DNA of 9,450 nt, taken from IMG/VR virus record IMGVR_UViG_2711768034_000006, positions 1 to 9,450 of that record, one strand, 5' to 3'. This document shows, piece after piece, positions 1 to 9,450 of the stretch. The position numbers and the translations under genes were made by a program. This DNA comes from a virus. Its lineage: Duplodnaviria > Heunggongvirae > Uroviricota > Caudoviricetes. The notes under the pieces were generated by a model. That model saw only the letters and a program-made list of their open reading frames with translations. It had not been told where the DNA came from and did no database searches. How positions within the stretch are numbered: the stretch's first letter is position 1; each line of letters starts with the position of its first letter.

Positions 1-3
1 ACG

Positions 4-228
4 TTACGGGCTGGCAAACGGCACGATTTCGGCTGATGCCACCTCCCTGGTGCGATAACTACACAGCAGGTTCCGCCCTAGCTTGACCAGTTCCTGCTGC
101 ACGCCTGGCAGCCGGTCGCGAGCATGGTCTACCGCTTCCTGTTCAGTGGCGAAACCCTCCATAATTTCGGTTTCGGTGTAGGTGCCGTGTTCCGGGTCAA
201 AAGCAATGATATATGCGCGATAACTCAT
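4..228 (-). CDS. Hypothetical small protein (74 aa), last gene of primase operon
   Basis: ATG at 228 preceded by GAGGG Shine-Dalgarno about 8 nt upstream; 10 nt after primase stop; followed (via wrap) by intrinsic terminator; no family recognised. Confidence 0.55.
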   Translation of the reverse strand: MSYRAYIIAFDPEHGTYTETEIMEGFATEQEAVDHARDRLPGVQQELVKLGRNLLCSYRTREVASAEIVPFASP

Positions 229-238
229 GGTTTAGCCC

Positions 239-2554
239 TCAGAACGGTTTATCTTCGCCGTCACCGGCTGTTTCTGTCATCACTTCCTGTGCGTCACACA
301 GGGGCGGCATACCTGCACGCGCCATCTGCGCTTCACGTGACTGCGATTTGCCGTCAGCGTTCAGCCATTTGGCCTTATTGCGCAGAATCCAGCAGCGGCT
401 TGCCTTGCCGTGAACCTTAATCGGCCCATCAATTTGCAGCGCGCCAGCTTCTTCCATTGCGCGGCGCATGGCAGGTGTGAAGCGGCTTTCTTCACCGTCT
501 GACAGCACATTTGCAATGTCACCTTGCGTGATAACGTCAACCGGCCATGACAGCACCAGGCGGTCAGCGTTCTTCTGCGTCATCGACTTCGCAGCGCCAA
601 TCACTGACTGTTTGGCCGCGTTCATCGGCGGGCGTTCGCCAGGGTTAAAGCTGCTTATGTCGCGCTCCGCCAGGAACACAGCCACAGCGTTGATAAACTC
701 GCGGTCGTTCAGCGCAGCATAGAGCGTGGCGTAAACTTCCTGCGGGCGCGGCTCTGCTTCGTGATGCACGATGCGCCAGCGGCGGTCTGTGTCGTCAATC
801 GGCAGCGCGTTAAGGTGGTTACTGAACACCAGCCAGCGCATGGCGTTGTGTTCACGGTGCTGGCGGCCATACTTCGGGTTCACGTCACGATATTCAGCCG
901 TAACGATGCTGCGCAGTTTGTTGGTGTGACTGTAGCGGTTTTCGCTCACCCCGGCCTGAATCTCGTCAACGATGGCCAGAACGCGCCCAGCTAACTGGCC
1001 GTTGAACTGGCTATCAAGCAGGTTAGGCAGGTCCACGTTCGGTGCCACATAGCCACGCCATACGCGCGCCAGGACGCTGGCCAGCCAGTTGCGGCCTGTG
1101 CCGGTTTTGTTGGCCACGTGCAGCCAGCCATAGTGCGGAAGTTCGCCTGGCTTCTGCTCCAGGTGTGCCAGCCAATCCAGGAATTTTTCGCGCTCTATGG
1201 CATCCGGGAATAGGTAGGCTACATGGTCCAGAAACAGGCTGATGCCTGTCGTGGCTTCTTTGCGTTCGAGCGGTCGCCAGGTGTTGATTGCAGGGCGTCC
1301 ATCCGGGTCACGGCAGAAGATGCCCGCGCCAGGGTGGAATGTCCGAGTGATAACCGTTTTGCGCTGCGGGTCTTGTTGCCACAGAACGGCGGTAGGCACC
1401 GGCTTTTTGCGCTCGTCGCTCAGTGTCATTGACGCTGACGTAAGCTGGCGGAATTCCTTCCAGGTCATAAACATTGTTGTGTCATTGACGCTGGCCACCA
1501 TTTCACCGCTTGCGATCCACACCATAGATTCCAGCATTTCTTCGCGGGACATCGACGGCGGCAGGATGCTGACTGTTTCCGGCTGTTGCAGGCGGGCGTT
1601 TTCTTCCTGCTGCAAACGGCGGCGGGTTTCTTCCGCCACGTCAACCACGCCACCAGCGCGCGCATTGTTAAGCGCAGCCAGGACCGCATCAGCACCTTGC
1701 TCCTGGTGCAAATCATTAACATCTTTGCCTTCTGCCAGGTCGGACGGCAGGGTGGCAACCGCAAAGCCAGTGCGGAAAGCGTCAGATTCTTTGCCACGGT
1801 CAGGGACTATGACCGGAACAGCACCAGCGGCCTTGATGATGTCGGCAGCCTTGCGGATGTTGCCAGCACCAAAGGAAACCACGGCAGCGCAGCCGGTGAC
1901 GGCGTTCACGCTCCAGGCGTGGCCGATACCTTCCACGATGTAGGCTTTCTGGCCTTTCTCCAGCTTTCCAGCCGTAAATGTGCCATCCATAGGGCAGCCA
2001 CTGGCGTTGCGCTTCTCTCCTTTGTTTGGCCCTACGAACTGTAAGGAAACCAGGTTTCCGCTTGATGACCAAACAGGGATTGCCAGCCAGCCTTTCAGGC
2101 TTTTGCTTCCGCTCCTGATGTCCTGCGTAACAACGCGCAGGCCGTCAGGCTTGCCCCACTTGCGCATGATGTACGGGTGTTCAGCGGTCGCAGGTTCTGA
2201 CGCAGCCCAAATGTCAATCGGGTTGTGTTTGGCTTTTGGCTTCTCAATAGGTGCCTTTTCCGCCCTGGCTGTTGGGTCATTCCACTGCGCCACGTTACGC
2301 GCCAGCCAGAACAGCGTGTTTTCAGTCACCGAACCGTCAATCTTAAAGCTACCCCAGGCGGAACGCACATCCGCTTCATTGCGGTAGTTGGTTGCGCCCT
2401 GGCTCCAGTTATGGAAGTCATCGAATGACAGGCCAGCAGCCTTTGCAGCGCAGCCAATGCGTGCCCAATCACGGCGTGAACAGTCGTTCGGCAGGGATTC
2501 CAGGGCGCTAAGTGCGCGCTCCATGTTGGTGATTTGGTCGTATGCCAGACTCAT
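239..2554 (-). CDS. Primase / SF3 helicase, phage P4 alpha-like replication initiator (771 aa)
   Basis: Long ORF; N-terminal Trp-rich region; DnaG/Toprim-like EGxxxA motif (IVEGIGHAW, aa 206-214); helicase-like region with Walker B-like LAIVDEIQ (aa 524-531) and SF3 motif C-like LVFSNH (aa 575-580); ATGA start/stop overlap with upstream orf77; GGGGG Shine-Dalgarno. Confidence 0.85.
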   Translation of the reverse strand: MSLAYDQITNMERALSALESLPNDCSRRDWARIGCAAKAAGLSFDDFHNWSQGATNYRNEADVRSAWGSFKIDGSVTENTLFWLARNVAQWNDPTARAEKAPIEKPKAKHNPIDIWAASEPATAEHPYIMRKWGKPDGLRVVTQDIRSGSKSLKGWLAIPVWSSSGNLVSLQFVGPNKGEKRNASGCPMDGTFTAGKLEKGQKAYIVEGIGHAWSVNAVTGCAAVVSFGAGNIRKAADIIKAAGAVPVIVPDRGKESDAFRTGFAVATLPSDLAEGKDVNDLHQEQGADAVLAALNNARAGGVVDVAEETRRRLQQEENARLQQPETVSILPPSMSREEMLESMVWIASGEMVASVNDTTMFMTWKEFRQLTSASMTLSDERKKPVPTAVLWQQDPQRKTVITRTFHPGAGIFCRDPDGRPAINTWRPLERKEATTGISLFLDHVAYLFPDAIEREKFLDWLAHLEQKPGELPHYGWLHVANKTGTGRNWLASVLARVWRGYVAPNVDLPNLLDSQFNGQLAGRVLAIVDEIQAGVSENRYSHTNKLRSIVTAEYRDVNPKYGRQHREHNAMRWLVFSNHLNALPIDDTDRRWRIVHHEAEPRPQEVYATLYAALNDREFINAVAVFLAERDISSFNPGERPPMNAAKQSVIGAAKSMTQKNADRLVLSWPVDVITQGDIANVLSDGEESRFTPAMRRAMEEAGALQIDGPIKVHGKASRCWILRNKAKWLNADGKSQSREAQMARAGMPPLCDAQEVMTETAGDGEDKPF

Positions 2555-2784
2555 GCCGCACCCCCTGCCTTGCGCTGCATATCCAGCGCCATTTGCCAGG
2601 CGTCCACGCGGTTGAACGGGAAGCGGGTGTTCTCTGCCAGGTGCCCCAGGTAGATGGAATATTGCAGCGGGCGGCCAGACTGGATGGCCTGCTTAATCAG
2701 TTCCTGCATGATGGCCACGCACTGTGCGTGCGTCTGGCTGGTAGCAGGTTCGCGCATAAGGCGATGCAGGGTGATGATGCTCAT
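2551..2784 (-). CDS. Hypothetical small protein (77 aa), tandem paralog of orf91
   Basis: ATGA overlaps at both ends (2781-2784 and 2551-2554); GGGGGTGCG motif just upstream of ATG; shares DAW motif and AGGA C-terminus with orf91. Confidence 0.55.
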   Translation of the reverse strand: MSIITLHRLMREPATSQTHAQCVAIMQELIKQAIQSGRPLQYSIYLGHLAENTRFPFNRVDAWQMALDMQRKAGGAA

Positions 2785-3056
2785 TTCGCACCCCCGGCAA
2801 TCTGCGCCAGGACGGTGGCCACTTCGCGTTCCGCCAGTTGTTCAGCGTAGGCGTGCGCAGTGATGCGCCAGGCGTCATCTTTGTTCAGGCGGTAGGCTTT
2901 GTTCCCGCGCATTACAATGCGGTAGGTTGCTTCCGCTGTGTCGGTGATGCTTGAACCGTTGCGCAGCATAGCGTCAGCGAATTTGAACGCAGCATCACAG
3001 CGAGTTTCAACGGTTCTGGTTTTCAGGATGGCGTCAGCCAGGTCGTGCAATTTCAT
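2781..3056 (-). CDS. Hypothetical small protein (91 aa), first gene of primase operon
   Basis: ATG at 3056 with GAGGAA Shine-Dalgarno about 8 nt upstream; translationally coupled to orf77; no family recognised. Confidence 0.55.
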   Translation of the reverse strand: MKLHDLADAILKTRTVETRCDAAFKFADAMLRNGSSITDTAEATYRIVMRGNKAYRLNKDDAWRITAHAYAEQLAEREVATVLAQIAGGAK

Positions 3057-3188: not shown

Positions 3189-3229
3189 GCCCCCTGGATT
3201 GTTCGCGCAGTCCGGGGGTTTTCCTTTTT
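3189..3229 (+). terminator. Plus-strand intrinsic terminator-like hairpin (CCCCC..GGGGG stem) followed by TTTTCCTTTTT
   Basis: Five consecutive G-C pairs (3190-3194 with 3214-3218) then T-rich tract 3219-3229; no plus-strand CDS upstream, so it would end a short antisense RNA. Confidence 0.35.
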
Positions 3230-3285: not shown

Positions 3286-3354
3286 GCTATTTTGCCAAAA
3301 TATAGGCCGAAAATTCATAAATAATTTCAGGCATTTAAAAAGGTAAATGTCGCT

Positions 3355-3384
3355 CATAATCCCACATAATCCGGCATAATCGGT
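3355..3384. repeat. Three direct repeats of CATAATC at exact 10-bp spacing (3355, 3365, 3375)
   Basis: CATAATCCCA / CATAATCCGG / CATAATCGGT read directly; helical phasing suggests a protein-binding array; near-identical array at 8220-8249. Confidence 0.5.
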
Positions 3385-3457: not shown

Positions 3458-5734
3458 TTACGGTGCTGCTAATCCGTCATTCATCATGCTACGATTTCGG
3501 ATTCCTTGCTGCTGTTTCAGCTTCTGCGCCACCTTATTTGCCAGCGCATCTTCATTCATGCCAGGCTCGGCCTTCACGTTGATGGTGTACTGGTCGTTCG
3601 TGTTCACCGTTGTGTTGCCGGTGCGGTTAGCCAGTGCCGGTGAAGGCAAGGACGCACCAGGGGCGGCGGTCGCTGCTGGCTGGCTGCTTTCGTCTTCACC
3701 GAACGGATTGCTAAAGAAATCTTTGGTTTTCTGCCACGCACCACCAGCAACATCAGACACGGCGTTTTTAAACTCCAGTGCCTTGTTGGTCAGGTTGCCG
3801 ATGTTGTCAGACACCCACAGAATCTTATCAATCAGGAACGTGATCGGTGCGGTCACAAGCTCGATGCCAGCCGCCAGGGTCTTACCGAACGTCATCCCCA
3901 TTTTACCGGCCTTATCCAGTTCCTCGCCGCTGTATTTGACCGGTTCGGTCAGTGACGTGAACCAGTTGAAAACCGTCTTAACCGCAGCACCCACACCATC
4001 AATGACAGGTTTCAGCGGCCCCATGCGTTCATAAAGGCGGCTCAGAGCTTCGCTAAGCGGTTCCAGCCCGGATTTGATGCCTTCACCCACTCCGCCAAAG
4101 AAAGCCTTCACACCGGCCCAATGGCGGTAAATCTGATAACCTGCCAGCGCCAGGCCAGCTACGGCAGCACCCACGCCAGTGGATATGAACGCCGCACCAA
4201 CGGCACGAATGCCGGTAGCCACCGCAGGCAGGCCACGGGTGCTGGCCAGAACGGCAGATGCGTTCATGCGGGCAAACAGGCTGGACATCTGCAACACGCC
4301 ACCTTTCAGGAACGTGAACGCAAAGCCAGCGGCGAACGTCGCCACACGTAGTGCCACCAGTGCACTGGAACCAATAACCACTGCTTTGGTCACGGTAGGG
4401 TATTCGCGCGCCAGTTCGGCAACCTTGCCGATAACCGGGCCAACGGTAGCCAGAACGCCGTTGAATGCTGGCAGCAGCACTGTGCCGATCGTGACGCCCA
4501 GGTTAGACACACGGTTGTTGAAAATCTTAAGCTGTGCCGACGTTTTGGCGGTGGCTGCCTCATATTCAGCCTGCATAGAACCGGCATATTTGGTCTTGTC
4601 TTTGACCATGTCCAGATTCTTTTGGTACGTATCAAGCTGTGTCAGCATTGGTGCGATAGCGCCAATCGATTCCTTACCAAACAGTTGCGAAAGCGTTGCC
4701 GCCTGCATGTGTTTTGGCAGCTTGCTGATCTTGGACAGGATGACGCGGATTGTTTCATCGGCGTTCAGTTGCATTGATTTTGCAACCTGCTTGGATGTGA
4801 AGCCAAGCTGTTTAAACGCTTCACGCTGTGACTTCGTGGCGGATGCGCCAGCGGTCAGGGATAGCAGCAGGTTTTTAATACCGGTGGCCGCAATCTCATT
4901 CTGCACGCCCATACCGCGCAGCGTTGCACCCATCGCAGCGATAGAACCGGAAGCTGCACCAGCGACGCTGCCAAGCGGCCCGATGCGCTGCGTGATTTCC
5001 AGGATGTCTTTGGCTGATGCGGCGGTGTTGTTGCCCAGGTAGTTGATCTTGTCAGCCAGAACGTTCATCTGGTCCTGCGTCATCCCGAAGGCGGCGCGCA
5101 TCTCTGCCATTGCCTGGCCTGCCTGGTCGGCGCTGACGTCAAAAGCCACACCCATTTTGATGGCCGATTCAGCAAACTTGGTTAGTTCGCTGGTGGCGAT
5201 GCCTGATTGAGCACCAGCGGCAACAATCTTGCCGATTTCGTTGGCTGCCATCGGCATTTTGGTTGACATATCCTGGATAGCCTGGCCCATCTTAACCAGG
5301 CCGTCAGGGGTTTCGAAGTTGGCAACCTTGCGGATATCTGCCAGCGTATCTTCAAAATCCATAGCCTGTTTGATCGGTACAGCTACCGTTGCGCCAAGTG
5401 CGACAGTCCCCAGGATTCCTTCTTTGTAGCCTTGACGCTTCGCCAGGTTGCGTTCGCGGGCATCCTCCACGCGTTTCAGGCGTTCGGTGGCAGAACGAAG
5501 GCGTTCAACCTGCCCGACAACCGTTTGATAGCGGTCCTTCATGCGGGAGAATATCGCGCTATCCTGGCCATAACGCTTCATTGCTTCATTTAACTGGCGC
5601 TGTTCGCGCGACAGCTTAGAGATTGCGCTACCAATCTCGACGGTATTTTTCTTTACAGTTCCAAATGCACCACGAAGGCTGCCGGAAACGGCCCCACCAA
5701 TCGTGATTTTTGCATTTAACTTCTTGTTGGCCAT
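3458..5734 (-). CDS. Phage tail tape-measure protein-like (758 aa)
   Basis: Coiled-coil, A/G/Q-rich N-terminal half typical of tape-measure core regions; long central hydrophobic Gly/Ala-rich segment (about aa 440-540); size typical of siphovirus tape-measure proteins; ATG at 5734. Confidence 0.75.
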   Translation of the reverse strand: MANKKLNAKITIGGAVSGSLRGAFGTVKKNTVEIGSAISKLSREQRQLNEAMKRYGQDSAIFSRMKDRYQTVVGQVERLRSATERLKRVEDARERNLAKRQGYKEGILGTVALGATVAVPIKQAMDFEDTLADIRKVANFETPDGLVKMGQAIQDMSTKMPMAANEIGKIVAAGAQSGIATSELTKFAESAIKMGVAFDVSADQAGQAMAEMRAAFGMTQDQMNVLADKINYLGNNTAASAKDILEITQRIGPLGSVAGAASGSIAAMGATLRGMGVQNEIAATGIKNLLLSLTAGASATKSQREAFKQLGFTSKQVAKSMQLNADETIRVILSKISKLPKHMQAATLSQLFGKESIGAIAPMLTQLDTYQKNLDMVKDKTKYAGSMQAEYEAATAKTSAQLKIFNNRVSNLGVTIGTVLLPAFNGVLATVGPVIGKVAELAREYPTVTKAVVIGSSALVALRVATFAAGFAFTFLKGGVLQMSSLFARMNASAVLASTRGLPAVATGIRAVGAAFISTGVGAAVAGLALAGYQIYRHWAGVKAFFGGVGEGIKSGLEPLSEALSRLYERMGPLKPVIDGVGAAVKTVFNWFTSLTEPVKYSGEELDKAGKMGMTFGKTLAAGIELVTAPITFLIDKILWVSDNIGNLTNKALEFKNAVSDVAGGAWQKTKDFFSNPFGEDESSQPAATAAPGASLPSPALANRTGNTTVNTNDQYTINVKAEPGMNEDALANKVAQKLKQQQGIRNRSMMNDGLAAP

Positions 5735-5755: not shown

Positions 5756-5962
5756 TTAATTAAGTAAATTTTCTGCAAGGGTGTGTTCACCGATTGCCCG
5801 CAAGGCGGCAGCGGCCAGTTGCAGGGCGCATTCGGTGCGGTAGTCTCGCTGTTTCTGCATTCCCTCCGCTGTTTCGCAAACCATAACTTTGGGCAGGACC
5901 ATATCCACCAGTTCAGGCCAGGGGTTTGTTCCTTCCGGTTTTGTGTGAATACGGTCCAGCAT
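5756..5962 (-). CDS. Hypothetical small protein (68 aa)
   Basis: ATG with AAGGGGG Shine-Dalgarno 6-7 nt upstream; immediately upstream of tape-measure gene; no family recognised. Confidence 0.45.
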   Translation of the reverse strand: MLDRIHTKPEGTNPWPELVDMVLPKVMVCETAEGMQKQRDYRTECALQLAAAALRAIGEHTLAENLLN

Positions 5963-5971
5963 GGTGCCCCC

Positions 5972-6181
5972 TTATGCGGTTTTGCTTTCTGTTGGTTTGT
6001 CGTTGGCGGTGATGTCGCGCATCCCAAACGTGATACCTTTCCAGGACTTCATCGCGCCGCTAAGGTTCTTGATCGCCAACTTTTGTGCGTCGGTCAGTTG
6101 GCTTGCGTTGTTCTTCGTCATCTTGTCGGCTACGCCGATGACGTTCAGAACGGCTTCATAAATGTTGTTGTTGGTTGCCAT
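5972..6181 (-). CDS. Hypothetical small protein (69 aa)
   Basis: ATG at 6181, GGAG about 10 nt upstream; 9-nt gap to orf68; no family recognised. Confidence 0.45.
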   Translation of the reverse strand: MATNNNIYEAVLNVIGVADKMTKNNASQLTDAQKLAIKNLSGAMKSWKGITFGMRDITANDKPTESKTA

Positions 6182-6183
6182 TC

Positions 6184-6501
6184 TTATGCGCTCCGCACCA
6201 GGATAGCGCCGCGCTTCACTGCCTGGCGCTTGGCCCGTTCACCGGAACTGATGCGGCTGGATGGTTGCCACTTCTTGCGTTCCAGGGTCGATGCGTGGCT
6301 TTCCGCTTCGTTGCGCATGGCGCGACCGGCTTCATCGGTCATGTGTTCGAATGCGTTTAAACGGTTGCGAAGGCTGGCCAGCAGGTCGGCTGCTTCGTAG
6401 CTGATTGGGTTTTTCTCTGAAATGGTTTGGAAACGCTTTGTTTCGCTAAGGATCAAACGCGCTTCTTCTTTCATTGATTCGTACAGGTCATGGTTTTTCA
6501 T
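6184..6501 (-). CDS. Hypothetical protein (105 aa from internal ATG; ORF-track start at 6633 probably a spurious extension)
   Basis: N-terminal 44 codons of the long ORF are W/S/T/P/H-rich and not protein-like; MKNHDLYE start at 6501 gives a helical, basic-tailed protein; no clear Shine-Dalgarno at either start. Confidence 0.4.
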   Translation of the reverse strand: MKNHDLYESMKEEARLILSETKRFQTISEKNPISYEAADLLASLRNRLNAFEHMTDEAGRAMRNEAESHASTLERKKWQPSSRISSGERAKRQAVKRGAILVRSA

Positions 6502-6715: not shown

Positions 6716-6880
6716 TTATTTGCCGTTCAGCCCGCTACTCAGAAACTTTTCAATCACCTGGCTGCGTGAAGGGCGGATGCCTGTTCTGCGTTCCAGTTTG
6801 GCTTGCTCTCTTTCGACCTGGCGCACCAGGTCAGGGGCGAGGCGTACCGTTACGTGCTGGCGTGTTTCTTGTCGTTTCAT
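6716..6880 (-). CDS. Ribbon-helix-helix (Arc/CopG-like) DNA-binding protein, 54 aa
   Basis: My own translation of the minus strand: MKRQETRQHVTVRLAPDLVRQVEREQAKLERRTGIRPSRSQVIEKFLSSGLNGK; beta-strand/helix/helix pattern resembling Arc; below the ORF-track size cutoff; ATG 3 nt after orf104 stop. Confidence 0.7.
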   Translation of the reverse strand: MKRQETRQHVTVRLAPDLVRQVEREQAKLERRTGIRPSRSQVIEKFLSSGLNGK

Positions 6881-6883
6881 GGC

Positions 6884-7198
6884 TTAATACCTGCTCATCC
6901 AGCTTTCGCGCTTCTGTTTCGGGCGCTGCTCGCGGTAGTGACTGCGCACCAGGGAGGCGAGGTAATTCACGGCGCGTTCAATCTGGTACTGCTTAAGCTC
7001 CGGGTAAGCCTTGCGAATCCATTTTTCAGCAGCGTCATCGCTGTAGATGAATCCTGACCAGCCAACCGGCTGCACTACGATGCGCGGTGTGTTTTCATCA
7101 CCGTGGCGCACATACATGGCCACACCTTCGATAGCTGCCAGGATTTCACCCGGCAGGGCAGCGCGCTCCGCTGCCGCTTTTTTGCTGCCCCACCACAT
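6884..7198 (-). CDS. Hypothetical protein (104 aa; ORF-track start at 7204 is TTG)
   Basis: ATG at 7198 sits 2 nt after the upstream TGA; AAGG Shine-Dalgarno about 7 nt upstream; no family recognised. Confidence 0.5.
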   Translation of the reverse strand: MWWGSKKAAAERAALPGEILAAIEGVAMYVRHGDENTPRIVVQPVGWSGFIYSDDAAEKWIRKAYPELKQYQIERAVNYLASLVRSHYREQRPKQKRESWMSRY

Positions 7199-7200
7199 GA

Positions 7201-8085
7201 TCAAGCCTTCCAGAACATAGTTGAGTCAGGCACCAGTGCGGATGCGTTCACCCACACAACGATTTCAACGGCACCATTCAGCACGCGGCGGGCGGTGACG
7301 CGGATTTCATCATCCAGGGCAACGGCTGCATTGCCGAAAGCGCCAATGATTGTGCTGGAAGTCTGGCCGCTGATTTCAGCGCGTACACCGTAGGCACGCA
7401 GAACGCCGTCTTGCAGTTCCAGGCCGGTGCAATCACCGCCAACAATGGCTTTAACTTCATCAAAGCGCAGGTTTTTGGCTGCAATCTTCTGCGCCACTGC
7501 GGTGAATGACGGGCTGGTAAGGGTTTCCGCTGCGCTTTCCAGGTGGTTCAGCAGCACGAAGTCAGCCAGATCGGCAATACCGCGTTCAATGGCGGTGTTG
7601 ACCGCTTCCAGCACTGTATCGTCAGCGAATTCGTGTTTCAGTTGCTGGCGGGTCAGGGTGTAGCCAACGCCGTAAGCCGGTGCGGTGTTGTGGTCGAATG
7701 CTGCAACCATGTACGGCTTGCCGCTCATGCTGATTTCTTCGCCGTCAGTAACTTTGGCGAACGCACCAGGGCGGATGACAACGAAGCGGTCAGCCACTTC
7801 GAGGCCAGTCGTTGCACCAGTCTGGCCAGTCGGCTGCGTGGTCATCGGGCCAGGAATGCGGATGATTTCAGCGCCTGCCTGTGCCACCAGCGAACGTTCA
7901 GCCAGAACAGCGTTGAAGGTGGTCTGCTTGCCACCTTTCGGGGTCAGCACGTCATTCATGGACAGGTAGCGAACTGCTGCCGGTTCCATAGGGATAAATT
8001 GAGTAATATCACCGTTGCCATCAGTGCGAACATGGCCGCCCTGGTGGTTCAACGCGTCGTTGATAAGTTGAGATAAAACGTTCAT
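7201..8085 (-). CDS. Beta-rich structural-like protein of unknown family (294 aa), first gene of operon 2
   Basis: ORF-track start at 8169 is TTG with a non-protein-like leader; ATG at 8085 has GGAG 8-9 nt upstream; A/G/T/V-rich composition like capsid or tail proteins; no motif recognised. Confidence 0.65.
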   Translation of the reverse strand: MNVLSQLINDALNHQGGHVRTDGNGDITQFIPMEPAAVRYLSMNDVLTPKGGKQTTFNAVLAERSLVAQAGAEIIRIPGPMTTQPTGQTGATTGLEVADRFVVIRPGAFAKVTDGEEISMSGKPYMVAAFDHNTAPAYGVGYTLTRQQLKHEFADDTVLEAVNTAIERGIADLADFVLLNHLESAAETLTSPSFTAVAQKIAAKNLRFDEVKAIVGGDCTGLELQDGVLRAYGVRAEISGQTSSTIIGAFGNAAVALDDEIRVTARRVLNGAVEIVVWVNASALVPDSTMFWKA

Positions 8086-8219
8086 TAAAAATGCTCCGGT
8101 TGTTGTGCAATAAATCGTCTGGAATGACTTAAAGATATACAGTAACCAGACCGAACACAATAGCCACAATGTGAGCTTTTTAATGTAAAATCAGTAACTT
8201 ATAACCCTGAATACTTGCA

Positions 8220-8249
8220 AATAACCAGGCATAATCCGGCGTAATCGAT
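8220..8249. repeat. Second copy of the phased 10-bp repeat array (AATAACCAGG / CATAATCCGG / CGTAATCGAT) upstream of operon 2
   Basis: Shares the 17-mer CATAATCCGGC[A/G]TAATCG with 3365-3381. Confidence 0.45.
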
Positions 8250-8379: not shown

Positions 8380-8570
8380 GTTTTGGAGGGGCACGCACAA
8401 CGCGAATTACGCGGGACCAATGCCCCCGCCCTGTACTGCCGCCGAGGAGGACCCTTCGATTTTTGAGGCAGGCAGGCGGCCAGGCGGTGCGCGCAAGGTC
8501 CATTATGTTAAATCGCGGAGTTTGCAGGCAGAAAGAAGCACCAGGAAGGTGCTGGCAGGCGAACGGCGCA
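8380..8570. other. GC-rich non-coding island with nested short hairpins (candidate cos/pac site or structured RNA)
   Basis: Abrupt GC-rich stretch inside an AT-rich intergenic region; inverted repeats GGGGCA/TGCCCC (8388-8426), CGCG-aatta-CGCG (8401-8413), AGCACC-aggaa-GGTGCT (8537-8553); both overlapping ORFs translate to non-protein-like sequence. Confidence 0.3.
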
Positions 8571-9065
8571 TAATCTGACATATTCCGCGCGCTTTCAGCC
8601 CGTATTCACTCAGGCTTATTGTTGCGATATGTGCAACGTTCTGGCTGTTTACTGAACAGCTACTGTTTGAACGCAAAACAAGGCTGAAAGGCTCGTTTCC
8701 TGTAGTTACATCATACTTCTGTATGTTGTACCTATTCCGGCTGCTGCTTTGGTTAGACGTGAAAAAGCGTGGTTACGAATGAGCGGACCACCACCAGCAC
8801 CCATGCCGCCCAGGCACCCCATCCGGTTACAACGCTGAATTGAGTTGTAACCGTGTTATGTTTCTGAAAAATAACAAATTTCGTGCAATCGGTTACAACG
8901 GTTACGCCAAGTTCATAAAGTTTGGAAAAAGCACTATGGGTATATAGGAATATACGAATTTCTTTTTTTTACTAATCTGTTGTAACCATTGTAACCGGAA
9001 TGGGTAAAATCATTAATATTCAGTGGCTTGCGTGGTTACAACGCCGGTTACAACACCGATTTTGC

Positions 9066-9092
9066 GTTGTAACCGTTGTAACCGTTGTAACC
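9066..9092. repeat. Three perfect tandem copies of GTTGTAACC
   Basis: Read directly. Confidence 0.9.
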
Positions 9093-9103
9093 GTAGTAGG
9101 CAT

Positions 9104-9129
9104 AAAAAAGCCCCGGCAGATGCCAGGGC
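9104..9129 (-). terminator. Intrinsic terminator ending the primase operon
   Basis: Minus-strand RNA GCCCUGGC-AUCU-GCCGGGGC (8-bp stem with one G-U, 4-nt loop) followed by UUUUUU, 25 nt after orf74 stop. Confidence 0.55.
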
Positions 9130-9151
9130 GGTCAGAACAAAAATTGTTGTA

Positions 9152-9450
9152 ACGTTACGGGCTGGCAAACGGCACGATTTCGGCTGATGCCACCTCCCTG
9201 GTGCGATAACTACACAGCAGGTTCCGCCCTAGCTTGACCAGTTCCTGCTGCACGCCTGGCAGCCGGTCGCGAGCATGGTCTACCGCTTCCTGTTCAGTGG
9301 CGAAACCCTCCATAATTTCGGTTTCGGTGTAGGTGCCGTGTTCCGGGTCAAAAGCAATGATATATGCGCGATAACTCATGGTTTAGCCCTCAGAACGGTT
9401 TATCTTCGCCGTCACCGGCTGTTTCTGTCATCACTTCCTGTGCGTCACAC
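9152..9450. repeat. Wrap-around duplicate of window positions 1-299
   Basis: Identical sequence; the ORF track lists the same 74-aa protein at 4..228 and 9155..9379. Confidence 0.9.
9155..9379 (-). CDS. Second copy of the 74-aa hypothetical protein (same locus as 4..228 via wrap-around)
   Basis: Identical translation in ORF track. Confidence 0.55.
   Translation of the reverse strand: MSYRAYIIAFDPEHGTYTETEIMEGFATEQEAVDHARDRLPGVQQELVKLGRNLLCSYRTREVASAEIVPFASP

What the first reader, a model, noticed from the sequence alone, without database searches (positions are those of the whole stretch)
3458..5734. Tape-measure-like protein encoded without any other recognisable tail genes
Tape-measure proteins set siphovirus and myovirus tail length and take part in DNA ejection. 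A satellite-encoded copy could in principle swap into a helper's tail, changing tail length, ejection or superinfection properties, analogous to capsid-size redirection by satellites. Alternatively the tape-measure domain has been co-opted for another role. The 758-aa size would predict a tail roughly in the 110-nm range if used as a ruler.
Basis: inference. Interest (0 to 1): 0.75.

Follow-up and report, generated by a model that had tools for sequence, protein, structure and literature searches.

The report
Plasmid phage satellite carrying its own tape-measure
The gene is a genuine, intact phage tail tape-measure gene on a 9.15-kb plasmid that looks like a parasite ("satellite") of Jilinvirus phages of E. 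coli. That makes it a new, lab-tractable example of the recently discovered habit of satellites putting their own ruler protein into stolen phage tails.

Summary
Window 3458-5734 (minus strand) is an intact 758-aa tape-measure protein (TMP): PF10145 E=3.5e-39, TIGR01760 E=5e-71, PHROG_28 E=1.5e-129. No other tail gene is present.

The window is a circular 9,151-bp plasmid. It carries:
- a primase-helicase replicon with iterons;
- a ~74-bp copy of the cos site of Jilinvirus myophages (ECOO78, ECO1230-10, ep3, HeidiAbel, Arya), centred on their deposited genome ends;
- an HK97-fold capsid-like gene;
- the TMP, which matches Jilinvirus TMPs end to end (57-60% identity, up to 86% in the core).

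Relatives are ~9-kb non-mobilizable plasmids and int/alpA islands at the 3' end of fis in Enterobacterales. A 9.9-kb Pseudomonas plasmid has the same layout. One related island sits inside a Jilinvirus-type prophage's major head gene.

Satellite TMPs are always intact, 757-773 aa, mosaic with helper alleles, and under the same purifying selection as helper TMPs (dN/dS about 0.2).

Most likely the satellite TMP replaces the helper's TMP in tails, as shown for Vibrio PLEs (Nature 2026). Tail length would change by at most about 3 nm. Incorporation into virions is inferred, not shown. I could not find this family described in the literature. I rate it a new variant of a known kind.

The parts
3458..5734 (-). 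Tape-measure protein gene, 758 aa, the last gene of the morphogenesis operon.
   Evidence: PF10145, TIGR01760 and PHROG_28 hits. Full-length 57-60% identity to Jilinvirus TMPs. dN/dS 0.19-0.26. Mosaic of a chromosomal-island allele (aa 1-450) and a plasmid allele (aa 450-758).
7201..8085 (-). HK97-fold major-capsid-like protein, 294 aa, the first gene of the morphogenesis operon.
6884..7198 (-). 104-aa protein conserved next to the capsid-like gene; function unknown.
6716..6880 (-). 54-aa basic protein, a possible small DNA-binding regulator (my guess from its sequence pattern only).
   Evidence: Conserved in the Pseudomonas element (E=8e-4). No Pfam support.
6184..6501 (-). 105-aa helical protein of unknown function, in the variable part of the operon.
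   Evidence: Only a sub-threshold DUF7341 hit.
5972..6181 (-). 69-aa protein of unknown function, variable among relatives.
   Evidence: No hits.
5756..5962 (-). 68-aa acidic protein immediately upstream of the TMP, where a tail assembly chaperone would be expected; function unknown.
   Evidence: No hits. No slippery or frameshift site seen.
8392..8466 (.). cos site copied from Jilinvirus helper phages, including the 13-nt GGACCAATGCCCC that forms the terminal repeat of the linear ECOO78 record.
   Evidence: 97% identity over 38 nt to ECO1230-10 just upstream of terS, and to both ends of ECOO78. In 50,697 phage records only Jilinvirus-group phages match. Arya's deposited ends fall at the same site.
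8211..8247 (-). Three GATTAYG direct repeats at 10-bp spacing upstream of the morphogenesis operon; a putative operator or promoter element.
   Evidence: Repeat family D2. The same 18-mer occurs at 3346-3382 and in all relatives, but not in the helper phages.
3346..3382 (-). Second copy of the GATTAYG triple repeat, upstream of the replication operon.
8825..9154 (.). Eleven GGTTACAAC iterons on both strands, the putative replication origin.
   Evidence: 11 matches against 1.8 expected; 0 of 200 shuffles reach 11.
239..2554 (-). Primase-helicase, 771 aa (PriCT_2, Toprim_3 and DUF5906 domains); the replication gene.
   Evidence: Pfam and PHROG primase hits. This module is swapped for Toprim or VapE versions in sister plasmids.
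2551..3056 (-). Two small ORFs (91 aa and 77 aa) that lead the replication operon.
   Evidence: Conserved in all sister plasmids.
1..299 (.). Terminal redundancy (identical to 9152-9450) showing the window is a circular 9,151-bp molecule. It includes orf74 (4-228, minus strand).
   Evidence: 100% identical 299-nt direct repeat at a spacing of 9,151.

Best explanation
The ORF is a functional tail tape-measure gene carried by a 9.15-kb plasmid-form phage satellite that parasitises Jilinvirus (Iiscvirinae) myophages.

Proposed life cycle:
- The plasmid replicates with its own primase-helicase and iterons.
- When a Jilinvirus infects the cell, its lambda-gpA-type terminase recognises the satellite's copy of the phage cos site and packages satellite DNA. 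The DNA goes either as one unit into small capsids shaped by the satellite's HK97-fold protein, or as a ~4-mer (36.6 kb) into normal heads.
- The satellite TMP keeps the helper-like N- and C-termini and near-helper length. It is built into helper-encoded tails in place of the helper TMP, giving chimeric tails that deliver the satellite, as shown for Vibrio PLE satellites.

Shown here: TMP identity, integrity and purifying selection; cos mimicry; the identity of the helper lineage; the capsid fold; and conservation of the capsid-like + TMP pair across genera.

Inferred: helper-dependent packaging, TMP incorporation into virions, and the benefit of that incorporation.
For: TMP identity. It is a full-length homologue of Jilinvirus TMPs (57-60% identity, 80-86% in residues 170-295), and those TMPs sit in P2-like tail modules.

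Termini: the first 27 residues are 24-25/27 identical to the helper's, even in the pW47 allele whose overall identity is only 45%. The C-terminal RSMM(N)DG..AP motif is kept.

Integrity and selection: the TMP is intact in every well-assembled relative examined, at 757-763 aa in Enterobacterales and 773 aa in Pseudomonas. dN/dS is 0.19-0.26, the same as helper versus helper (0.20). Mosaicism with helper alleles points to ongoing recombination.

cos: a ~74-bp island of 94-99% identity to the Jilinvirus cos, with unrelated flanks, centred on the deposited ends of ECOO78 and Arya. In 5,426 complete E. coli genomes that 73-bp piece is the only part of a terL-terS-cos query that is found. It occurs in 49 genomes, and the hits checked fall at satellite positions.

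Wider conservation: the Pseudomonas counterpart has a cos resembling that of Pseudomonas phage PPpW-3 and the same gene order. A related island is inserted in the head gene of a Jilinvirus-type prophage.

Host range: the plasmids are typed non-mobilizable yet occur in E. coli, Salmonella and Proteus, and homologues of the capsid-like protein lie on ~9-kb contigs in Enterobacter and Cronobacter.

Precedent: PLE TMPs are selectively incorporated, and deleting them costs 96-99.9% of transduction.
Against: There are no virion proteomics, transduction data or expression data for this family.

No satellite-encoded tail assembly chaperone or baseplate hub was found, whereas PLEs have both.

The window's own cos differs from the E. 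coli Jilinvirus consensus in its distal arm and resembles Enterobacter phage Arya instead, so the cognate helper of this particular plasmid is not pinned down.

The 21-aa deletion that separates enterobacterial satellite TMPs from their helpers is not a general satellite mark. PPpW-3 lacks the segment and the Pseudomonas satellite has it.

How a 9.15-kb unit satisfies a cos/headful terminase is unknown.
Confidence: 0.6

Rival explanations
1. Interference weapon. The satellite TMP acts as a poison or competitor subunit that enters helper tail assembly and yields defective or mismatched tails. This lowers helper progeny (a population-level defence) and is not needed for satellite transfer.
For: Satellites commonly sabotage helper assembly, and tail assembly is a known target (Tai systems; PLE11 Rta). 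Enterobacterial satellite TMPs all differ from their helpers by a 21-aa segment and have a strongly divergent core in one allele.
Against: Length is kept within 757-763 aa, both termini are conserved, and selection is as strong as on helper TMPs along the whole protein. That is what a working ruler requires, not what a decoy requires. PLE TMPs are needed for transfer and are found in virions. The two roles are not mutually exclusive.
Confidence: 0.2
2. Co-option for a non-virion role. The TMP-like membrane-active protein would work in the plasmid-bearing cell, for example by blocking DNA entry of superinfecting phages or by some plasmid maintenance function.
For: TMPs have hydrophobic segments and act at the inner membrane during ejection (HK97 literature cited).
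Against: The gene is the last cistron of an operon that begins with a capsid-fold gene and lies next to a helper cos site. The full-length ruler architecture is retained. There are no hits to known defence families. The same capsid-like + TMP pairing is kept in islands and plasmids across genera.
Confidence: 0.08
3. Decaying remnant. The plasmid is a deletion derivative of a Jilinvirus-type phage, and the TMP is a leftover passenger with no current role.
For: The TMP, cos and weakly the primase N-terminus (27% identity) are the only parts that resemble the phage.
Against: The ORF is intact in dozens of plasmids and 65 chromosomal copies. dN/dS is about 0.2. The architecture is conserved down to 40% identity in Pseudomonas. 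The capsid-like gene is not derived from the helper's capsid gene (hhalign probability only 9.6%). Unit size is tightly constrained at about 8.9-9.6 kb despite replicon swaps.
Confidence: 0.04

Closest known systems
Vibrio cholerae PLE satellites, which encode their own TMP to build chimeric tails with phage ICP1 (Mathur, Boyd et al., Nature 2026; PMC12987554)
   Same: A satellite of a (mostly) virulent myophage encodes a full-length TMP homologous to the helper's while lacking tube, sheath and fibre genes. The helper is not resident in the host genome.
   Different: There is no sequence relationship to PLE. This family has no recognisable tail assembly chaperone or baseplate hub gene. Its TMP is much closer to the helper's (about 60% identity against about 20%) and of nearly the same length (PLE's is 95 aa shorter and gives a 10-nm shorter tail). 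It uses a cos copy rather than PLE's packaging system. It exists as a plasmid as well as an island. Nothing has been tested experimentally.
Gram-negative PICIs, such as the E. coli EcCI elements with int-alpA-pri and cos/Rpp
   Same: Chromosomal relatives have the int - alpA - primase/VapE - morphogenesis layout, are about 9.2-9.6 kb, and carry either a helper cos site or a TerS-like gene.
   Different: The window has no integrase and no AlpA, and replicates as an iteron plasmid. The helper is a P2-tailed myophage rather than a lambdoid siphophage. It carries a capsid-fold gene and a TMP, which are not part of the classical PICI set.
Capsid-forming PICIs (cf-PICIs; some carry putative tmp genes according to Extended Data Fig. 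10 of PMC12987554)
   Different: It has no portal, no large terminase and no head-tail connector genes. At only 9 kb it cannot build a capsid on its own.
SaPIbov5 Ccm and P4 Sid capsid-size redirection; P4 as a plasmid-capable satellite of P2
   Different: PHROG, Pfam and NCBIfam scans gave no hit of any kind to the small ORFs, so no Sid, Psu or Delta equivalent was recognised. Capsid-size redirection here is only a hypothesis. P4 has no TMP.
Mycolicibacterium EPIP satellites (bioRxiv 10.64898/2025.12.02.691453)
   Same: These satellites are also reported to encode a TMP and a capsid protein.
   Different: They have actinobacterial hosts and siphophage helpers, use a serine integrase, and make tails much longer than the helper's. 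They are unrelated in sequence.

Membership tests
Phage tail tape-measure protein (PF10145 / TIGR01760) | Profile match above the curated cut-off. | tested here: met
   PF10145 scores 135.2 bits against a cut-off of 33.2. TIGR01760 scores 239.4 bits against a cut-off of 28.8.
Phage tail tape-measure protein (PF10145 / TIGR01760) | End-to-end collinear homology to TMPs located in bona fide tail modules. | tested here: met
   99-100% coverage of the query and 57-60% identity to the TMPs of ECOO78, ECO1230-10, ep3 and HeidiAbel, which lie between the chaperone gene and the gpU/gpX/gpD-like genes.
Phage tail tape-measure protein (PF10145 / TIGR01760) | Preceded by a tail assembly chaperone gene with a programmed frameshift. 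| tested here: not met
   The upstream ORFs (68, 69 and 105 aa) have no similarity to helper chaperones. No slippery site was seen, and orf69 and orf68 lie in the same reading frame, separated by a stop codon.
Phage tail tape-measure protein (PF10145 / TIGR01760) | Present inside the tail tube and sets tail length. | not testable with these tools
   This needs virion mass spectrometry and electron microscopy.
Phage satellite (general) | Lacks most virion and lysis genes but has its own replication module. | tested here: met
   The only structural genes are the capsid-like gene and the TMP. A primase-helicase and iterons are present.
Phage satellite (general) | Carries the helper's packaging signal or a packaging-redirection gene. 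| tested here: met
   A 74-bp copy of the Jilinvirus cos site. Relatives without cos carry a TerS-like winged-helix gene instead.
Phage satellite (general) | Helper-dependent packaging and transfer. | not testable with these tools
   Only indirect support: the plasmids are typed non-mobilizable yet are found in several genera.
PICI (phage-inducible chromosomal island) | An integrase and an AlpA-type regulator at one end, integrated in the chromosome. | tested here: not met
   The circular 9,151-bp window has no integrase or AlpA. Relatives at fis-yhdJ do have them.
cf-PICI | A full capsid and packaging set (terS, terL, portal, protease, MCP, connectors). | tested here: not met
   Only a capsid-fold protein is present. 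No portal, terminase or protease hits.
PLE | Vibrio island with PLE-specific genes (TcaP, RepA, the TAC-TMP-BhuB cluster) and ICP1 as helper. | not tested
   No PLE sequence was compared. The host and helper lineages differ, and no chaperone or hub gene was found.

The most novel reading that the evidence does not exclude
The TMP could be the satellite's private 'entry key'. The TMP is the virion part that meets periplasmic and inner-membrane host factors, and it is the target of superinfection exclusion and of TMP-directed inhibitors such as Rta in PLE11. A satellite with its own recombining TMP core could therefore do two things. First, it could keep making functional tails while one of its small unknown proteins shuts down the helper's TMP. 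Second, it could deliver its DNA into cells that exclude the helper. If so, this family would be a conjugation-independent plasmid lineage. It would spread across Enterobacterales and Pseudomonas in mini-capsids nucleated by its own HK97-fold protein and attached to chimeric tails. Some members even insert into the helper's capsid gene.
Probability: 0.2. Interest if true: 0.85.

Novelty: new variant of a known kind. Interest (0 to 1): 0.62.

Why it matters
Satellite-encoded tape measures were first demonstrated only in 2025-26, in Vibrio PLEs. Why satellites carry them, and how the satellite's copy is chosen over the helper's, remain open questions.

This family offers the same phenomenon in E. 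coli. A candidate helper from the public BASEL collection (HeidiAbel, Bas97) is available, the 9-kb plasmid is easy to manipulate, and natural TMP allele swaps already exist, so the question becomes directly testable.

It would also add a clear case of a plasmid that is a phage satellite. A 2025 review stated that only about one such case was known. It would explain how a class of 'non-mobilizable' ~9-kb plasmids moves between genera.

Tried and rejected
- **Frameshifted chaperone upstream of the TMP.** I looked for a G/GT-type tail assembly chaperone. The reading frames and sequence show simple TAA..ATG junctions with no slippery site, and there is no similarity to helper chaperones.
- **Defence and RNA families.** PADLOC gave no hits and Rfam gave no hits.
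- **The 54-aa ORF as a ribbon-helix-helix regulator.** Pfam gave no support; this remains only my guess from the sequence pattern.
- **Shared late promoters with the helper.** The GATTAYG triple repeat is absent from the helper phages, and blastn with a word size of 7 found nothing beyond the TMP and cos.
- **Co-resident helper prophages.** None of 5,426 E. coli genomes matched the Jilinvirus terminase genes at megablast level; only the cos segment matched. Co-occurrence therefore could not be scored, and the helper appears to arrive by infection.
- **Evidence of encapsidation from IMG/VR.** Only two loci were found, both uninformative.
- **Is the capsid-like gene a recent copy of the helper's capsid gene?** No: hhalign gave only a distant C-terminal match (probability 9.6%).
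- **The 21-aa deletion as a satellite signature.** Rejected as a general rule after the Pseudomonas comparison.
- **Published tail lengths for Jilinvirus.** None found in the ECOO78 paper.
Full report
**1. What is in the window.**

The first 299 bases are identical to the last 299 (spacing 9,151), so the window is a circular 9,151-bp molecule. All credible genes lie on the minus strand. The ORF at 3458-5734 encodes 758 aa and is a tape-measure protein (TMP) by three libraries:
- PF10145, E=3.5e-39;
- TIGR01760, E=5.4e-71;
- PHROG_28, E=1.5e-129 over residues 20-749.

None of the other ORFs hits a tail family.

**2. Layout of the element.**

There are two operons.

The replication operon contains two small ORFs (2551-3056), a 771-aa primase-helicase with PriCT_2, Toprim and DUF5906 domains (239-2554), and orf74. 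Downstream are eleven GGTTACAAC iterons at 8825-9154 (1.8 expected by chance; 0 of 200 shuffles reach 11).

The second operon starts at 8085 and runs to the TMP stop codon. Its genes, in order, are a 294-aa protein, then proteins of 104, 54, 105, 69 and 68 aa, and finally the TMP.

Both operons are preceded by the same triple GATTAYG direct repeat at 10-bp spacing.

**3. The helper.**

The TMP aligns end to end with the TMPs of Jilinvirus myophages (ECOO78, ECO1230-10, ep3, HeidiAbel Bas97, PT1, Alux-21) at 57-60% identity. Identity is lower with other Iiscvirinae-type phages. In those phages the TMP sits in a P2-like tail module.

Apart from the TMP, the only DNA shared with these phages is a ~74-bp segment at window 8392-8466. 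This segment has three properties that mark it as cos:
- It lies immediately upstream of terS in ECO1230-10.
- It spans the two ends of the linear ECOO78 record, whose ends repeat the 13-mer GGACCAATGCCCC.
- The deposited ends of Enterobacter phage Arya fall within a few bases of the same point.

In 50,697 phage records only Jilinvirus-group phages match it. The flanks are unrelated between satellites and phages. The large terminase of a Jilinvirus-type prophage (77% identical to ECOO78 terL) is of the lambda gpA family (PF05876/PF20454), and that family makes cohesive ends. I conclude that the plasmid carries the helper's cos site.

One caveat applies. The distal arm of the window's own cos differs from the E. 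coli Jilinvirus consensus and is closer to Arya and PPpW-3. Its sister plasmids match ECO1230-10 almost perfectly.

**4. The family.**

Five PLSDB plasmids are close relatives. They are 8.9-9.3 kb (one record is a ~1.9-mer), come from E. coli, Proteus and Salmonella, and are all typed non-mobilizable. They share the segment 2538-8787 but have swapped primase modules.

Sixty-five of 5,426 complete E. coli chromosomes carry integrated relatives. The integrated copies examined lie between fis and yhdJ. Their layout is int - alpA - primase/VapE, followed by the same capsid-like-to-TMP operon. The att core TTAGTTCATGCCGTATT is the 3' end of fis.

I queried the same genomes with 2.7 kb of Jilinvirus terL-terS-cos. 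Only the 73-bp cos piece was found, in 49 genomes, and the hits I checked fall at satellite positions. No terminase gene matched. The helper is therefore not resident, which mirrors the PLE-ICP1 relationship.

Members that lack this cos carry a 159-aa TerS-like winged-helix gene instead.

Homologues of the capsid-like protein occur on contigs of about 8.7-10 kb in Salmonella, Enterobacter, Cronobacter and Pseudomonas, and on larger contigs in Raoultella, Atlantibacter, Serratia and Klebsiella.

A circular 9.9-kb Pseudomonas fluorescens contig has the same order (primase, capsid-like protein, 102 aa, 53 aa, further small ORFs, TMP of 773 aa). It also has a cos-like site resembling the ends of Pseudomonas phage PPpW-3.

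The conserved core of the family is therefore the capsid-like protein, the 104-aa protein, the 54-aa protein and the TMP.

**5. An independent link to the helper.**

A more distant relative in Salmonella is a 9.17-kb island. It carries an integrase, an AAA_25 helicase, a protease-capsid fusion, a 155-aa homologue of the window's 104-aa protein, and a 521-aa protein with weak, roughly collinear similarity to the TMP.

The island is inserted in the major head gene of a Jilinvirus-type prophage and is flanked by a 16-bp direct repeat. Removing the island and one copy of the repeat restores an intact 698-aa head ORF.

**6. Is the TMP functional?**

All well-assembled copies examined are intact (one long-read plasmid record, CP077066, shows frameshifts that are probably assembly errors). 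Lengths are 757-763 aa in Enterobacterales, against 781-785 aa in the helpers.

dN/dS among satellite TMPs is 0.19-0.26, the same as between two helper TMPs (0.20).

The first 27 residues are 24-25/27 identical to the helper's, even in the pW47 allele whose core is only 20-35% identical to the window's allele. The C-terminal motif is also retained.

The window's TMP is a mosaic. Residues 1-450 equal the chromosomal-island allele, and residues 450-758 equal the plasmid allele. One island allele carries a C-terminal stretch identical to ECOO78's. This shows recombination among satellites and with helpers.

The main length difference is a 21-aa Ala/Gly-rich segment missing from enterobacterial satellites. 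It corresponds to about 3 nm. It is not a universal satellite mark, because PPpW-3 also lacks it and the Pseudomonas satellite has it.

**7. Mechanism.**

The most economical reading has three steps:
- the helper terminase packages the plasmid through the copied cos site;
- the capsid-fold protein either redirects or builds small heads (9.15 kb is 22% of the helper genome), or alternatively a 4-mer (36.6 kb, 89% of ECOO78) fills a normal head;
- the satellite TMP is assembled into helper tails.

This third step is what was shown experimentally for Vibrio PLEs. All PLEs encode a TMP, it is selectively incorporated, the helper's TMP is excluded, and deleting it costs 96-99.9% of transduction. 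That paper also notes putative tmp genes in some cf-PICIs. A preprint reports TMPs in mycobacterial EPIP satellites.

I found no paper describing the present family or any Jilinvirus satellite. A 2025 review states that only about one satellite is known to be a plasmid.

**8. Rivals.**

- A poison-subunit (interference) role cannot be excluded and may coexist with the main model. However, the conserved length, the conserved termini and helper-like selective constraint fit a working ruler better.
- A non-virion role is disfavoured by the operon context and the adjacent cos site.
- A decaying remnant is disfavoured by integrity, purifying selection, and conservation down to 40% identity in another genus.

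**9. Verdict.**

The element is a previously undescribed (as far as I could search) plasmid and island family of Jilinvirus satellites. I rate it a new variant of the now-known 'satellite with its own tape measure' theme.

Noticed in passing
L015:4688-13853 (Salmonella GCA_018535225.1, contig ABAQCL010000006.1): A related 9.17-kb island is inserted inside the major head gene of a Jilinvirus-type prophage. It carries an integrase, an AAA_25 helicase, a protease-capsid fusion, a 155-aa homologue of the window's 104-aa protein, and a 521-aa TMP-like protein. It is flanked by the 16-bp repeat ATCCCCAAACAAACAG, and removing it restores a 698-aa head ORF. This looks like a satellite that integrates into its own helper's capsid gene.
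   Followed up: yes
window 8392-8466: A ~74-bp copy of the Jilinvirus cos site. The window's distal arm is of the Arya/PPpW-3 type, whereas sister plasmids have the ECO1230-10 type. This suggests a modular nick-site plus binding-site arrangement and helper-specific variants.
   Followed up: yes
window 3346-3382 and 8211-8247: The same triple direct repeat (GATTAYG at 10-bp spacing) sits upstream of both operons. It is conserved in all relatives and absent from the helper phages. It is probably an operator for an unidentified regulator; the 54-aa protein at 6716-6880 is a candidate.
   Followed up: partly
window 3191-3218 (+ strand): A strong terminator-like hairpin (12 pairs followed by a T-run) lies on the strand opposite the genes, within the leader of the replication operon. 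This could mark an antisense RNA for copy-number control.
   Followed up: no
window 239-2554, compared with L003, L004 and L010: The replication module is exchanged between otherwise near-identical elements (DUF5906, Toprim and VapE versions), while total size stays at 8.9-9.6 kb. This suggests a packaging-size constraint.
   Followed up: partly
L009, L010, L017, L019 (E. coli fis-yhdJ locus): Integrated relatives use the 3' end of fis as their attachment site (core TTAGTTCATGCCGTATT). They occur in 65 of 5,426 complete E. coli chromosomes. Some replace the cos copy with a 159-aa TerS-like winged-helix gene.
   Followed up: partly
L023 (Pseudomonas fluorescens, 10,014-nt contig with a 95-nt terminal overlap): A circular ~9.9-kb Pseudomonas element has the same gene order, a 773-aa TMP, and a cos-like site resembling the ends of phage PPpW-3. 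The design therefore spans at least two bacterial orders.
   Followed up: partly
L002 (CP077066.1, 17,382 bp): This plasmid record is a head-to-tail ~1.9-mer of an 8,944-bp unit, and its TMP reading frame is broken by frameshifts. This is probably a long-read assembly artefact, but multimers would matter for cos packaging.
   Followed up: partly
window 3458-5734: The TMP is a recombinant. Residues 1-450 are identical to the chromosomal-island allele and residues 450-758 are nearly identical to the pW47/pSCU-121 plasmid allele. The alternative core allele is only 20-35% identical and is closest to the Pseudomonas phages PPpW-3 and Persinger.
   Followed up: yes
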